Source: Saprospira grandis (lineage in GTDB: Bacteria > Bacteroidota > Bacteroidia > Chitinophagales > Saprospiraceae). From it: 64,000 bases of DNA. The notes under the pieces are model-generated. The model saw only the letters and a program-made list of their open reading frames with translations. It had not been told where the DNA came from and searched no databases. The translations under genes and the position numbers were made by a program. Positions 1,875 through 60,404 of the stretch are shown here, piece after piece (the stretch's first letter is position 1; the number at the start of each line of letters is the position of its first letter). The stretch is taken from contig NZ_CP110854.1 in NCBI RefSeq assembly GCF_027594745.1, positions 1,372,241-1,436,240 of the forward strand. Reading direction: 5' to 3'.

Positions 1875-2298
1875 TTTGGGGCTGCCCCTACCGCTAGGTT
1901 GAAACCCAGCGCAAAGCGGTATCGCTTTGCGAAGCTACACAAAATGAGGGTTGAAACCCTCATAAATTATCGGTCGGGTCGGGCCATTGCGCAGCTCGCA
2001 GGTCTGCTCGGCCCTGCGTCGCTTTGCTCCTTGGTCTGCCGCCTTCGGCGGCCCTGCTACAGCCCCTCAGCCTGCGGGCCTTCGGCCCTTTTTAGCTGTA
2101 GGTTGAAAGCTTGGGCCAAGCCGCCAAAGCAGAACGCCCAAGCCAAACCGCTCCGATGAGCGGCCCAGCGCTGCGGAGGGGTGGCCGAAGGCCAGACCGA
2201 GCTTTTGAGCAAAGCGAAAAAGCGAAGGGCCGAACAGGCCTGTGAGCCCCGCAGCATAGCGGCGGCCAGCAAAGCTGGCCGCGGGCCCCAAAAAAAAT
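1875..2298. repeat. Full copy of the GC-rich MITE/BIME-like element (F arm, hairpin modules, R arm)
   Basis: Begins TTTGGGGCTGCCCC and ends GGGCCCCAAAAAAAA. Contains the core GCTCGCAGGTCTGCTCGGCCCTGCG, its reverse-complement-type arm, and two GGTTGAAACC hairpins. Short six-frame ORFs across it are artefacts. Confidence 0.8.
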
Positions 2299-2417
2299 AA
2301 AAAAATTTTACGCTCCTAAACAGCTGATAAAAAACAACTTAACAGGCGAGTAAAAAATAAATTCAGAAAAAAAGCGGCTAAAAATGAAAAAAGATTTGCG
2401 AGATCCAAAAAGCTGCC

Positions 2418-2425
2418 TTATATTT
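2418..2425 (+). promoter_or_regulatory. Candidate -7 promoter box TATATTTG for tRNA-Leu
   Basis: An exact match to the Bacteroidota sigma-A consensus TAnnTTTG lies about 20 nt upstream of the tRNA 5' end. The same box precedes tRNA-Met. Confidence 0.45.
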
Positions 2426-2444
2426 GCAACGTCGAAAATGATAA

Positions 2445-2529
2445 GCGGATGTGGTGAAATTGGTAGACACGCTAGACTTAGGATCTAGTGCCGCAAGGTG
2501 TGTGGGTTCGAGTCCCTCCATCCGCACCA
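2445..2529 (+). tRNA. tRNA-Leu (anticodon TAG), long variable arm, CCA encoded
   Basis: Acceptor stem GCGGATG pairs with CATCCGC. D-arm is TGGTAGACA, anticodon loop CTTAGGA, and T-arm GGTTCGAGTCC. Confidence 0.85.
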
Positions 2530-2699
2530 ATTTAGAAAGTGCAAATTCTGATGGGATTTGCGCTTTTTTTTTGTGCAAAACCAAAGATCGGCCTTAAATC
2601 TATGCCTAGAATTAAGACAACTTCAGTATCTTTGGGCCACTTTTGGGGAAAATCCCTAAAATTAAGATTTGATTATTAAGTTATTAAAGACTAGACACG

Positions 2700-58129: not shown

Positions 58130-58800
58130 GGCCTTTTTCTGTTTTGCAGGAGTACTTTTAGCCATCGAGAGGGGTTCAGCTACCCATCGGGAGGGGTACA
58201 CATACCCCTCTGGAGGACTTTAGCTAGCCATAAGGAGGATTTCACATACCCATCGAGAGGGGTACAGCTAGCCGTCGAGAGGGGTACAGCTAGCCGTCGA
58301 GAGGGGTACACTTACCCGTCTAGAGGGGTTCCTATACCCATCAGGAGGGGTACAGCTACCCATCGAGAGGGGGGCAGCTAGCCCTCCATAGGGCTACTCC
58401 TAATCATCAGGAGCATTTCTGGACCTCCGAGCGAGGACCTCTCCTAGTCCTCTATAGGGCTGCTGTACATTATCTTGAGGGCTAGCGCTAATCCTCCAGA
58501 GCAGTCTTCCTAGTTATCAGGACCATTCTTTTACCTAAAGAGGAGGACTTAGGCTAGTCATCGGCAGGACTTGTACTGCTCCAAAGGAGGACCTATAGAG
58601 GTCCTCTAGAGCAACTAGGCCTATAGTATAGAGGACTTAAGTAAGTCCAAAAGAGGAGCTACAGAAGCCCTATCAAGGACCTCCCCTAGCCCAAGCGAGG
58701 ACTTACTCAAATCCTCTTGATAACCTATACAACCCCAAGAGAGGAGCTCACTAAGTCCTACCGAGGGGGTTCAGTACTCCTCGCCCTTATTTCAGCTAAA
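58130..58800. repeat. Long degenerate tandem-repeat array, ~22-bp unit (AGCCGTCGAGAGGGGTACAGCT-type), ~30 copies
   Basis: The periodicity is directly visible: CATCGAGAGGGGTTCAGCTACC, CATCGGGAGGGGTACACATACC, CGTCGAGAGGGGTACAGCTAGC x2 and so on, decaying into GAGGAC-containing variants up to about 58800. The track ORF at 58127-58381 is an artefact of the repeats. Confidence 0.8.
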
Positions 58801-58977
58801 AGATGGGGGTATTTGCTATTATCGCCTAGGGGCTTGTCCCTAGGCGCAGAAAGGGGAAACACAAAACATTGAACAGTCTCCCTTCTTCCTAATTGGCATA
58901 TATATTTGCTAGCTGCAGTGGGAACTAATCAGCCAAGAGCAGCATTCTAGCTCTCCGAATGAGTAAACCAAAGAATA

Positions 58978-59319
58978 ATGGAAACAAGTGTAATTTTAAT
59001 CTTCTCTATTCTAGAGGAGTTTTCAGAAAGACAAAAAGAGGTCTCTGCTTTTAAGCTCTATACCGGTCGTAATATAGATTTAGTTTGTATTCATGCACAG
59101 GATGATCCTAATATTGATGATACTTGGTATGGCGGGTCTAAATATATGTCTCAACATATTTTAATGGGTGCCTATAAATCTCTAGAGATTGATAAATTCA
59201 TTGCTCATCTAAAGACTGAGGTAAATTGGGAAGAGCCCGAGGAGGTCCAGCTACTAGTTTATGATAATAGAACTGGAGATGAAATTTATAGACTCATCAA
59301 TATCTTTGAGGCCAAATAG
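58978..59319 (+). CDS. Hypothetical small cytoplasmic protein (orphan)
   Basis: A 113-aa ORF in a locally AT-rich island. No recognisable motif. Confidence 0.3.
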   Translation: METSVILIFSILEEFSERQKEVSAFKLYTGRNIDLVCIHAQDDPNIDDTWYGGSKYMSQHILMGAYKSLEIDKFIAHLKTEVNWEEPEEVQLLVYDNRTGDEIYRLINIFEAK

Positions 59320-59382
59320 ATGTAGTACACTCGGCGGCAGTTGACTTAATTGGCTGCCGCTTTTTGCAGAGACCAACTGATT

Positions 59383-59982
59383 ATGCTAGTAAAATGTAAA
59401 ATTAACTCCCAAAAACAATTAGCCCAATCATCTTCTAGTGCTTGGATTAAAAAGCACTTTAAGGACCTTTACCCCTATGGGATTGACTTGGAGTTACATC
59501 ATAATTATGTGGTGCATGCGATACAGTATTACCAGATTCCCTTTGTATACATTTATACTAGTTATGTCAATTTCCCAAGACCTTATCCCCTAGAATTTTT
59601 TGAAGTGGTTGATGCTCGGCTCTCTAAATACTTTTGTTTTGGAGAGATTCAGGGTTGTCCTATTAGTAGTAGCTTAGACCCCTTCATTAGTTTTAAGGAG
59701 TGGGCCGAGAATCCAGATTTCTTCAGTGATCTTGTTGAGGGAGAAGACTACACCAAAGTAGCCCAAAACTATAAGGAGAAACTAGAGGTAGAATTTTTCA
59801 ATCCCAACCTCAATATTAGTGAAGAGTCAGCTATCATCTTAGATCCCAAGATGAGCTGGTTATTTTGTCCCGCTTGTACAGAAAGTTGGGAGGTCCAGAC
59901 AGCTGATGAGATGACGGTTTGTCCCAGTTGTGAGCTGTATTATCATAATCCCTTTATAAAAAATGCTGGGGAGGAGTCATAA
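59383..59982 (+). CDS. Hypothetical protein with C-terminal CxxC...CxxC zinc-ribbon
   Basis: CPACTESW...CPSCELYY at the C-terminus. Start is probably MLVKCK. AT-rich and adjacent to the orphan ORF. Confidence 0.3.
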   Translation: MLVKCKINSQKQLAQSSSSAWIKKHFKDLYPYGIDLELHHNYVVHAIQYYQIPFVYIYTSYVNFPRPYPLEFFEVVDARLSKYFCFGEIQGCPISSSLDPFISFKEWAENPDFFSDLVEGEDYTKVAQNYKEKLEVEFFNPNLNISEESAIILDPKMSWLFCPACTESWEVQTADEMTVCPSCELYYHNPFIKNAGEES

Positions 59983-60404
59983 TGCTCTTCCTAATGAGAA
60001 GCATAAAAGCCGTTAAACAAACTAGCCAACAACCTTTTATGCCATGGGCTGAAGCCCATGATTGCGGGTCTATGCAAACTGGCGGGCTAAAGCCCTTGCT
60101 TGCTATAAATGATATGGGCCTATGGTTGAAACCATAGGCCCATATTTTTTTTGCAGCTGGCCAAGCTAGTTCATTTTATGAGGGTTTTAACCCTCATTCA
60201 TCAATCATTGCGGAGCAATACCATGCTTGCTGTAGGTTTCAACCTACAGTAAAAAGGGCCAAAGGCCCGTCGGCAAAGGCCAAATGAAAGCCCTGCCACT
60301 TCTATCCTTTGCTTTAATTTCTTGCTATTCTGCGTTATTTTTCTCAGCCATAGCTACGGCTATGCCTTTAAAAAATGCCTTGACTAGCCTGAAATTTTTA
60401 TCAA

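What the first reader, a model, noticed from the sequence alone, without database searches (positions are those of the whole stretch)
1890..60250. Family of small hairpins with invariant GGTT-N(2-4)-AACC core and covarying outer stems
At least nine short palindromes share the inner core GGTT(T/G/A)(A/C)AACC, while the outer stem differs between copies and always remains complementary. They are ATGAGGGTTGAAACCCTCAT (about 1945), CTAGGTTGAAACCCAG (about 1897), TTGGGTTTCAACCCGAA (about 33668), CTGGGTTAAAACCCACAG (about 44598), GCCGATGGTTAAAACCATCGGC (about 44660), CTGCGGGTTTCAACCCGCAG (about 45152), GGGCCTATGGTTGAAACCATAGGCCC (about 60112), ATGAGGGTTTTAACCCTCAT (about 60176) and CTGTAGGTTTCAACCTACAG (about 60226). 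Compensatory changes in the stem point to selection for structure, either as RNA or as a cruciform DNA site for a protein. Several copies sit inside or at the edge of the larger MITE-like elements, so these hairpins may be modular building blocks, REP-like, or the recognition hairpins of the transposase that moves the elements.
Basis: seen in the sequence. Interest (0 to 1): 0.65.

Follow-up and report, generated by a model that had tools for sequence, protein, structure and literature searches.

The report
Conserved-tip hairpin repeats in Saprospira
The nine small palindromes are real members of a family of over a hundred short DNA stem-loops in Saprospira, with a fixed tip and interchangeable stems; they are building blocks of mosaic repeats between genes, probably selfish or structural DNA rather than RNA genes.

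Summary
GGTTNNAACC occurs 9 times in the window against 0.9 expected, and 47 times in 880 kb of Saprospira grandis DSM 2844 against 3.8 expected. The spacer is always 2 nt and always GA or AA, so this is one oriented motif, GGTTRAAACC. It folds as a stem closed by T-A around a TRAA loop. Five outer stem positions take 3-4 different Watson-Crick pairs each (covariation 0.41 against 0.11 in shuffles).

The hairpins are not free-standing. Most form 85-100-nt direct doublets in a fixed order with a short conserved tail. They sit at the inner ends of ~150-nt GC-rich "arm" repeats, or inside them, always in the same orientation as the arm. About 22 such arms fill the window's intergenic regions.

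Stems are far better conserved than linkers, including between species. G-U pairs are almost absent. There is no orientation bias relative to transcription, only ~22% of copies have a U-tract, and Rfam has no match.

My best reading is a DNA-level, REP/BIME- or IS200/IS605-PATE-like family of non-autonomous modules whose hairpin tip is the recognition structure. No transposase was found. I rate it a new variant of a known kind, of moderate interest.

The parts
1892..1911 (+). Hairpin CGCTAGGTTGAAACCCAGCG (one A.C mismatch). First hairpin of doublet M3, which lies inside the first variable slot of an arm.
1944..1963 (+). Hairpin ATGAGGGTTGAAACCCTCAT. Second hairpin of doublet M3, followed by the tail AAATTATCGG (to 1973).
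2095..2109 (+). Half copy CTGTAGGTTGAAA|GCTTGG, truncated in the loop, at the centre of the arm pair 1875-2300.
33663..33684 (-). Solo hairpin TTTTTGGGTTTCAACCCGAAAA (T.G wobble on the + strand) at the centre of the arm pair 33481-33826. It is conserved at the orthologous site in DSM 2844.
44603..44622 (+). Hairpin CTCTGGGTTAAAACCCACAG (C.C mismatch). First hairpin of doublet M2.
44655..44684 (+). Hairpin ATGAGCCGATGGTTAAAACCATCGGCCCAT. Second hairpin of doublet M2. On the - strand it is followed by TTTTATTG, which looks like a terminator.
45155..45174 (-). Hairpin CTGCGGGTTTCAACCCGCAG. Head hairpin next to the right arm, with an M5-type body.
60112..60145 (+). 34-nt perfect palindrome ATATGGGCCTATGGTTGAAACCATAGGCCCATAT followed by T7. 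This is the one copy in the window that looks like a classical intrinsic terminator.
60169..60249 (-). Doublet M1 on the - strand: CTGTAGGTTGAAACCTACAG (60249-60230), a linker containing the small hairpin ATTGC-nnn-GCAAT, ATGAGGGTTAAAACCCTCAT (60197-60178), and the tail AAAATGAAC.
60043..60060 (+). Sister-class hairpin CATGGGCTGAAGCCCATG (GGCTRAAGCC tip).
44981..45112 (.). Three further TRAA/TTYA-capped hairpins in the same element: 44981-45000, 45032-45053 and 45091-45112.
44437..44585 (+). Left arm of the composite element 44437-45335 (outer end TTTTGGGGCC, core GCTCGCAGGTCTGCTCGGCC).
45185..45335 (-). Right arm of the same element, in inverted orientation.
33481..33826 (.). Two arms in inverted orientation that form one long palindromic element around the hairpin at 33663-33684.
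1875..2300 (.). Arm pair (+ then -). The left arm carries doublet M3 in its first hairpin slot.
60436..60548 (-). Arm whose inner end is the ancestral neighbour of doublet M1. Its partner arm lies at 57943-58095.
60274..60435 (.). 162-nt non-coding module inserted between ...GGCCCGTCGG and CCTAGGGGCC. The site is empty in the related species (L147), and TCGG occurs at both junctions.

Best explanation
The hairpins are cis-acting DNA stem-loops of a lineage-specific family of small, non-coding, non-autonomous repeat modules that build the mosaic intergenic repeats of Saprospira.

Shown:
- Each hairpin is 5 or more variable Watson-Crick pairs, then G-C, G-C, T-A, closing a T-R-A-A loop.
- About 11 different perfect stems share this tip.
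- Most copies are the first or second hairpin of an 85-100-nt direct doublet. The order is fixed (CTGTR / CAGTG / CGCTR first; ATGAG / CCGAW / TGGAG / ATGCG / CTGAA second), followed by a short tail ending in ..WTWAAC.
- The first ('head') hairpin is shared by at least five different module bodies.
- Modules sit at the inner ends of the ~150-nt arms, or in an arm's first slot, always co-oriented with the arm.
- Stems are kept intact while linkers drift.

Inferred:
- The hairpin forms in single-stranded or extruded DNA, preferentially on the strand that reads GGTTYCAACC/GGTTTTAACC.
- Its invariant tip is the part a structure-specific protein reads. The lower stem only has to pair.
- The modules were spread and stacked by orientation-specific insertion and then reshuffled by recombination between shared sub-motifs.
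- The nearest mechanistic analogy is recognition of end hairpins by single-strand HUH/Y1 transposases (IS200/IS605 'peel and paste', RAYT/REP).
- Some second hairpins have secondarily acquired terminator-like U-tracts.
For: - Enrichment and strict centre dinucleotide.
- Predicted fold with a 4-nt loop.
- Covariation with almost no G-U.
- Fixed orientation relative to the arm. 37 copies are co-oriented with the arm upstream and 7 lie inside the arm. The other 9 are nearest to the opposite arm of an inverted pair. None is reversed with the arm upstream.
- 31 distinct direct doublets with spacing 48-60 nt and fixed order.
- Conserved tail, with T at +5 in 29 of 29.
- The M2 module has sharp boundaries and unrelated flanks.
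- Stems 117/120 Watson-Crick against 72% linker identity.
- Between species, all 6 differences in the M1 doublet fall at unpaired positions.
- The central hairpin is conserved between strains.
- Mismatches are mostly A.C on the GA strand, which is G.T on the other strand. The count is 10 against 1 in S. grandis and 13 against 4 among distinct sequences of both species.
- No orientation bias relative to transcription.
- Module-level insertion at an arm's inner end, with an empty site in the relative.
- Two copies are truncated exactly in the loop.
- The same direct doublet occurs on an unrelated metagenome contig without arms.
Against: - No transposase of any kind was found in the window.
- No ORF lies between neighbouring hairpins.
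- No Y1-like hit was found in ~1 Mb. That was a weak test, using sequences recalled from memory on ~22% of the genome.
- No conserved target sequence or clear target-site duplication flanks the doublets.
- The two hairpins of a doublet share only the tip, unlike IS608 ends.
- Elements sit at the same sites in strains ~6% diverged and partly in species ~15% diverged, so current mobility is low.
- The strand asymmetry rests on few independent events and is weak in the second species, 6 against 3.
- About 22% of copies do look like terminators.
Confidence: 0.4

Rival explanations
1. The hairpins act at the RNA level. They would be 3'-end stem-loops (intrinsic terminators, insulators against convergent read-through, or mRNA stabilisers) or parts of small RNAs, and the U(G/A)AA or UUYA tetraloop would be conserved for stability or for an RNA-binding protein.
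For: - 60111-60146 is followed by T7.
- The second hairpin of M2, read on the opposite strand, is followed by TTTTATTG.
- 25 of 113 distinct copies have a T-tract: 21 on the TC strand only, 3 on the GA strand only and 1 on both. They are mainly CCGAx and some ATGAG second hairpins.
- The strand with the U-tract is the same strand on which mismatches become G-U.
- Hairpins are enriched in convergent intergenic regions: 16 of the 32 copies that could be assigned to an intergenic type, against 16% of intergenic regions.
Against: - 78% of copies have no U-tract on either strand, and 43 of 44 of the commonest type (CTGTA) have none.
- In co-directional regions orientation is 11 sense against 18 antisense.
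- G-U pairs are almost absent on the GA strand and rare on the other.
- The genome has ordinary terminators of a different design, with 7-nt loops and A/T flanks.
- No Rfam family matches.
Confidence: 0.2
2. The hairpins are passive palindromic debris. They would be relics of an extinct mobile element, or of local inverted duplication. Complementarity would be kept by mechanism (intrastrand template switching or gene conversion between copies) rather than by any present function or recognition.
For: - Pairing is strictly Watson-Crick, as expected for templated correction.
- The arms' own slots hold at least 102 different perfect mini-hairpins with almost no mismatches.
- At an orthologous site a whole mini-hairpin was swapped, GGCCTTCGGCC to GCGGCTTCGCCGC. 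A 47-nt module appeared in both arms of one palindromic element, which suggests arm-to-arm copying.
- Modules are duplicated, permuted and truncated.
- No mobilising gene was found.
Against: - The loop and three closing pairs are invariant in 119 copies. Only about five further copies with a good stem carry a single core change in the S. grandis sample. Templated correction would not preserve an unpaired loop.
- The centre is restricted to RA.
- The order and orientation of doublets are fixed across two species.
- The outer stems belong to the propagated unit and are not copied from local flanks.
Confidence: 0.2
3. GGTT-N2-AACC is a duplex-DNA operator for a dimeric DNA-binding protein (a regulator or nucleoid-associated protein), and the longer palindromes are incidental.
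For: The core is a 4+4 inverted repeat of the size typical of helix-turn-helix operators, and it is intergenic.
Against: - A dimer on duplex DNA would not require complementarity of five more variable positions on each side.
- It would not require an asymmetric centre that is always RA and never a symmetric AT, TA, CG or GC.
- Sites are depleted in divergent (promoter) regions, 3 of 32 assigned copies.
- They occur as fixed doublets inside repeats.
Confidence: 0.05

Closest known systems
REP / BIME elements of enterobacteria and pseudomonads, and REPINs mobilised by RAYT (Y1 HUH) transposases
   Same: Short (20-34 nt) extragenic palindromes present in hundreds of copies. They combine with other short motifs into mosaic intergenic elements and are commonest downstream of genes. 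Sub-families differ by compensatory stem changes.
   Different: There is no conserved GTAG/CGTC head; GTAG occurs only inside the stem of the CTGTA type. The conserved part is the loop and closing pairs, not the stem. Doublets are direct, not inverted (REPIN) or alternating (BIME). No RAYT gene was found. The hairpins are attached to a much larger ~150-nt structured repeat.
IS200/IS605-family ends and their miniature derivatives (PATEs)
   Same: Two sub-terminal hairpins lie on the same strand at the two ends of a short unit, with no terminal inverted repeats and a short specific 3' tail after the second hairpin. Insertion is orientation-specific. There is a hint that only one strand must fold (G.T tolerated on one strand).
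   Different: The two hairpins share only their tip. No conserved 5' target tetranucleotide was seen. The left boundary lies at the foot of the hairpin. No TnpA or TnpB was found in the sample.
Bacterial MITEs with modular structure (pneumococcal BOX, Neisseria Correia elements, Stenotrophomonas SMAG)
   Same: Non-coding, high-copy, intergenic and modular (as in boxA-boxB-boxC), with stable predicted secondary structure.
   Different: The doublets have no terminal inverted repeats. A target-site duplication is not established. The only candidate, TCGG, belongs to a different 162-nt module.
Integron attC sites
   Same: Sequence-variable but structure-conserved palindromes, recognised as a folded single strand, at junctions between exchangeable units.
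   Different: attC sites have conserved R/L boxes and extrahelical bases, flank coding cassettes, and lie beside an integrase. None of this is seen here.
Rho-independent terminators
   Same: GC-containing stem-loops downstream of genes. A minority of copies carry a T-tract.
   Different: 78% of copies lack a T-tract. The genome's ordinary terminators have a different design. The loop sequence is conserved, which terminators do not require.

Membership tests
REP / REPIN-RAYT | Short imperfect palindromes, extragenic, in high copy number | tested here: met
   119 copies in ~1.2 Mb of two Saprospira genomes. Only 4 of 56 fall in called ORFs.
REP / REPIN-RAYT | Conserved GTAG or CGTC tetranucleotide at the 5' head of the palindrome | tested here: not met
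   Stems start CTGTA, ATGAG, CCGAT, TGGAG, CTGAA and so on. GTAG occurs only within the CTGTA-type stem.
REP / REPIN-RAYT | Two REPs in inverted orientation (REPIN), or alternating orientation (BIME) | tested here: not met
   All 31 distinct doublets found when cores in the same orientation were paired at 44-64 nt are direct, 48-60 nt apart and in a fixed order. Closely spaced inverted pairs were not tabulated; inversion was seen only between whole arm-bearing halves of an element.
REP / REPIN-RAYT | A RAYT (Y1 transposase) gene flanked by the repeats in the same genome | tested here: inconclusive
   None in the window by Pfam. No ORF of 90 aa or more lies between hairpins 350-2500 nt apart. 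tblastn with remembered Y1 sequences was negative on ~1 Mb. About 78% of the genome was not searched.
IS200/IS605-derived PATE | Sub-terminal hairpins at both ends on the same strand, with no terminal inverted repeats | tested here: met
   Direct doublets with sharp boundaries and unrelated flanks.
IS200/IS605-derived PATE | Insertion 3' of a conserved tetra- or pentanucleotide, with no target duplication | tested here: not met
   No conserved bases were seen upstream of the first hairpin on either candidate top strand. Only the tail after the second hairpin is conserved.
IS200/IS605-derived PATE | Only one strand is active (hairpins functional on the top strand) | tested here: inconclusive
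   A.C against G.T mismatches are 10:1 in S. grandis, 6:3 in the relative, and 13:4 among distinct sequences. These represent few independent events.
MITE (derivative of a DDE transposon) | Terminal inverted repeats plus a target-site duplication | tested here: not met
   The doublets have no inverted termini and no consistent duplication. The arms do occur as inverted pairs, but around ordinary genes or non-coding mosaics.
Intrinsic terminator | Stem-loop followed directly by a U-tract on the transcribed strand | tested here: not met
   88 of 113 distinct copies have no T-tract on either strand. 25 do, of which 21 are on the TC strand only.
Described structured RNA family (Rfam 15) | Match to a covariance model | tested here: not met
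   Only two tRNAs pass gathering thresholds in the window. Nothing credible appears at E<=5 in the hairpin regions.

The most novel reading that the evidence does not exclude
The hairpins are the cis sites of an undescribed, structure-guided single-strand insertion system. It would stack non-coding modules, always in one orientation, onto the inner ends of an ancient ~150-nt repeat. That repeat has an exactly conserved 21-nt core in Saprospiraceae and Lewinellaceae genomes of 41-62% GC. The result would be a self-assembling intergenic mosaic with its own, still unidentified, enzyme, in which the head hairpin serves as the docking joint for at least five different module bodies.
Probability: 0.15. 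Interest if true: 0.75.

Novelty: new variant of a known kind. Interest (0 to 1): 0.45.

Why it matters
Small palindromic repeats are among the least understood parts of bacterial genomes. Outside proteobacteria there are few cases in which their grammar has been worked out. This one offers a clean grammar:
- an invariant loop with free stems;
- direct doublets with a fixed order and a conserved tail;
- strict co-orientation with a much older structured repeat.

That makes specific predictions: a tip-reading protein, one active strand, and insertion at arm ends. All can be tested with existing Saprospira genomes and simple oligonucleotide assays.

On the practical side, these repeats break short-read assemblies. 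The only public contig carrying the neighbouring gene ends at position 1920, about 10 nt past the first hairpin. They also create spurious ORFs, so recognising them improves annotation.

Tried and rejected
- Rfam at gathering threshold on the whole window, and at E<=5 on the two hairpin-rich regions and on four metagenome loci, returned only tRNAs and a T-box elsewhere.
- A tRNA or anticodon-arm origin was rejected. ARAGORN finds only tRNA-Leu and tRNA-Met, and the loop is 4-6 nt, not 7.
- Literature searches found nothing relevant. I searched for Saprospira repeats, for REP/RAYT/MITE with Saprospira, and for the motif itself as a text string. The S. grandis Lewin genome paper is not held.
- The look-up of encoding contigs for the gene next to the first hairpins returned only a 5.7-kb contig that stops in the repeat.
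- The idea that arm pairs are transposon ends carrying cargo was rejected. The enclosed genes are ordinary, for example an arginase-family gene, and arms occur in almost every intergenic region.
- A Y1 transposase search by tblastn with remembered IS200, IS608 and RAYT-like sequences was negative but weak.
- A search for ORFs between hairpin pairs found none.
- Viral contig scans with two hairpin types found none.
- The alignment of an orthologous intergenic region, L130 against L004, was uninformative because the inner content is unrelated.
- The large indels between the window and DSM 2844 were a small gene difference and an IS3-family insertion, not hairpin modules.
- The hypothesis that outer stems are copied from local flanks (palindrome extension) was rejected because the same stems recur in unrelated contexts.
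Full report
**Observation**

Dinucleotide-preserving shuffles give 0.90, and none of 100 reaches nine. Versions with a 3- or 4-nt spacer do not occur. Extending each core gives perfect palindromes of 10-34 nt. 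With one mismatch allowed, every copy has a stem of at least 7 pairs. Folded as single strands, they give a stem closed by T-A around a 4-nt loop (TGAA, TAAA, or TTCA/TTTA on the other strand), most with z-scores of -4 to -7. The quoted coordinates are up to ~10 nt off, and three of the nine stems contain one non-Watson-Crick pair.

**Organism and setting**

A 21-mer from the larger repeats found more than 120 stretches, nearly all in Saprospira grandis DSM 2844. The window is 91-95% identical to that genome where they overlap, so it comes from another S. grandis strain.

All window genes I scanned are ordinary chromosomal genes. They include trigger factor, RecJ and a thiamine operon. No transposase, integrase or HUH protein is among them.

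The window holds about 22 copies of a ~150-nt GC-rich 'arm':
- The outer end reads TTTTGGGGC.
- The core is GCTCGC-N5/6-GCTCGGCCC.
- Conserved blocks alternate with four small, highly variable hairpins.
- Arms lie in almost every intergenic region, often as inverted pairs with their outer ends facing the genes.

**Anatomy of the family**

I pooled the window with 120 eight-kb tiles, about 1.02 Mb in total.
- There are 56 cores, and every one has GA, AA, TC or TT at the centre. Other 4+4 palindromes of similar composition show no such restriction. The motif is therefore oriented: GGTTRAAACC.
- In the DSM 2844 tiles alone the count is 47 against 3.75 expected.
- A sister class, GGCTRAAGCC, has 44 copies, e.g. 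CCATGGGCTGAAGCCCATGG. The third closing pair can therefore covary as well.
- Only about five copies with good stems carry a single core mismatch.
- Outer stem positions 2-5 are Watson-Crick in 48-51 of 53 copies, with three or four pair types per position.
- On 41 distinct sequences, 81.7% of cells pair against 64.3% in shuffles. The covariation score is 0.409 against 0.108 (0 of 500) and 0.05-0.11 for slid partners. Only one cell of 410 is G-U.
- With a related species added there are 119 copies and 11 distinct perfect 5-bp stems: CTGTA 43, ATGAG 14, CCGAT 6, TGGAG 4, CTGAA 3, CTGTG 3, ATGCG 2 and four singletons.

**Higher-order organisation**

- Orientation is locked to the nearest arm. 37 copies are co-oriented with the arm upstream, and 7 lie in the arm's first slot. 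Nine are nearest to the opposite arm of an inverted pair. None is in the forbidden configuration.
- There are 31 distinct direct doublets with cores 48-60 nt apart. The first hairpin is always a CTGTR/CAGTG/CGCTR type. The second is an ATGAG/CCGAW/TGGAG/ATGCG/CTGAA type.
- After the second hairpin comes a short conserved tail, with T at +5 in 29 of 29 and a ..WTWAAC pattern. Beyond it the flanks are unrelated.
- The head hairpin followed by C(C/A)A is shared by at least five different downstream bodies.
- The window holds one doublet of each of three kinds (1892-1973, 44603-44690, 60169-60249) and three solo copies.
- Hairpins are enriched in convergent intergenic regions: 16 of the 32 copies that could be assigned to an intergenic type, against 16% of regions. 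They are rare in divergent ones, 3 of 32.

**Evolution**

- Within the ATGAG doublets, linkers are 72% identical, yet 117 of 120 stem cells pair.
- Between S. grandis and a relative from metagenome Ga0193958 (82-91% identical), the M1 doublet differs at six positions, all unpaired.
- The palindromic element at 33481-33826 and its central hairpin are present in DSM 2844. The only stem change there creates a T.G pair.
- The mosaic is nevertheless plastic. DSM 2844 has a 47-nt module inserted in both arms, and one arm mini-hairpin is swapped wholesale.
- The window has a 162-nt module inserted exactly between the doublet and the arm, where the relative has an empty site.
- Doublets are permuted or partly duplicated, tandemly amplified in 433-bp units, or truncated in the loop.
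- The inner content between arms can be unrelated in orthologous regions.

**Distribution**

- The arm core also occurs in Lewinellaceae and Saprospiraceae MAGs of 41-62% GC, but ~76 kb of those loci hold only one tip motif.
- A 20-mer scan of metagenomes found 29 loci. Twenty-four come from the two sister samples Ga0193958 and Ga0193959, and all 24 share repeat or gene sequence with S. grandis. Their contigs also contain the arm core in all but one case (L145), together with 65 more hairpins.
- One unrelated 649-kb contig has no arm in the 8.2 kb retrieved. It carries a direct doublet of CTGTAGGTTTTAACCTACAG and a compensated CCGTAGG..CCTACGG copy.
- Viral contigs have none.

**DNA or RNA?**

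Against RNA:
- G-U pairs are nearly absent.
- In co-directional regions the motif is sense in 11 cases and antisense in 18.
- 88 of 113 distinct copies have no T-tract on either strand.
- The genome's evident terminators have a different design.
- Rfam has nothing.

For some RNA role:
- 60112-60145 is followed by T7.
- 21 copies, mostly second hairpins, have a T-tract on the TTYA strand only; one further copy has a T-tract on both strands.
- That is also the strand on which the common A.C mismatches become G.U: 10 against 1 in S. grandis, 6 against 3 in the relative, 13 against 4 among distinct sequences.

The asymmetry fits equally well a single active DNA strand. It rests on few independent events, and I treat it as suggestive only. 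The arms' own hairpins show no such asymmetry, 16 against 11, and almost no mismatches.

**Mechanism**

I commit, at about 0.4, to a DNA-level reading. The hairpins are cis-acting stem-loops of small non-autonomous modules. Their invariant tip is read by a structure-specific protein on extruded or single-stranded DNA, and the lower stem only has to pair. The modules were stacked in one orientation onto arm ends and later reshuffled by recombination.

Shown: the motif, the covariation, the doublet grammar, the orientation rule, conservation of stems over linkers, and module-level insertion.

Inferred: the single-stranded form, the protein, and the mode of spread.

The main weaknesses are these:
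- No enzyme gene was found. Only ~22% of the genome could be searched, and weakly.
- No conserved target is seen.
- Most elements are old and fixed in place.

Rivals are an RNA terminator or insulator role (0.2), passive relics kept palindromic by templated correction (0.2), and a duplex operator (0.05).

**Comparison with known systems**

The family works most like REP/BIME elements and like IS200/IS605 end hairpins. It fails the strict REP tests: there is no GTAG/CGTC head, and doublets are direct rather than inverted. It meets only the architectural test for a PATE: two hairpins on one strand and no inverted termini. It lacks a conserved target and a known TnpA. It is not a classical MITE, an attC site, or a described RNA.

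I found no description of these repeats in the searchable literature. I therefore rate it a new variant of a known kind, of moderate interest. It would interest people who study bacterial repeats, mainly for its unusually clean grammar and its tie to a much older, order-wide repeat.

Noticed in passing
window, about 22 sites, e.g. 6845-6965, 18477-18630, 24022-24180, 25009-25166, 33481-33826, 44437-44585, 62372-62530: A ~150-nt GC-rich 'arm' repeat occurs about once per 3 kb (337 in ~1 Mb). Its 21-nt core is exactly conserved in Lewinellaceae and Saprospiraceae MAGs of 41-62% GC. It has fixed blocks separated by slots that hold hypervariable perfect mini-hairpins. One slot shows 229 distinct sequences and at least 102 distinct perfect hairpins among 345 arms, with almost no mismatches or G-U pairs. 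There is no Rfam match.
   Followed up: partly
L048 about 3760-3805 and 4040-4180; window about 38945-38992 and 53835-53880: A 47-nt mini-module, GTTACTCCC..GGTCGTCGAACTG-[variable hairpin]-TTGTTGTCG, inserts at one specific point of the arms. It is present in both arms of the DSM 2844 orthologue of 33481-33826 but absent from the window copy. This is a clear presence/absence difference between strains.
   Followed up: partly
window 44814-44905, 58162-58380 (degenerate to ~58800), 28176-28450; L126 2660-3585; L130 about 7200-7700: Tandem repeats with periods of 21, 22, 41/83, 42 and 433 nt lie inside the regions bounded by arms. Next to two of them is a shared motif, CACAAAAYWTTSAACAGTCTCCC, with a CCTAGGG-N-CCCTAGG palindrome (44740-44810 and 58823-58885).
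   Followed up: no
window 60274-60435 vs L147 about 2900-2925: A 162-nt non-coding module lies between ...GGCCCGTCGG and CCTAGGGGCC in the window. The site is uninterrupted in the related species, which carries a copy of the module elsewhere in the same region. TCGG is found at both junctions and may be a target duplication.
   Followed up: partly
window 58978-59982 vs L147 1980-2600: Two hypothetical ORFs (113 and 210 aa, no Pfam hit) lying between an inverted arm pair are absent from the orthologous region of the related species, which has unrelated sequence there.
   Followed up: no
window 47661/47663 vs L044 3919-5404: DSM 2844 carries a ~1.5-kb insertion that reads like a two-ORF IS3-type insertion sequence with interrupted reading frames (judged by eye from the sequence; no domain search was run). 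The window strain has an empty site at that position.
   Followed up: no
window 38735-39446 and 41341-41550: No TPP riboswitch passed Rfam thresholds upstream of thiC, although the thiamine operon is there. Arms occupy the region upstream of thiC and the gap between thiC and the next thi gene.
   Followed up: no
window 9025-14964: A 1979-aa ORF with no Pfam hit contains internal repeats spaced about 285 nt apart (12789, 13077, 13362, 13632).
   Followed up: no
L139 2940-3200 (Ga0209417_1000007): An unrelated 649-kb metagenome contig (42% GC, no arm in the 8.2 kb retrieved) has the same CTGTAGGTTTTAACCTACAG hairpin as a direct doublet 42 nt apart. It also has compensated variants and other small palindromes in one intergenic region. 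The organism was not identified.
   Followed up: partly
L001 (Logan SRR23239775_602) vs window 1-1920: The only public contig encoding the bestrophin-like gene at 937-1866 is 100% identical to the window. It ends at 1920, about 10 nt past the first hairpin, which suggests that these repeats break short-read assemblies.
   Followed up: no
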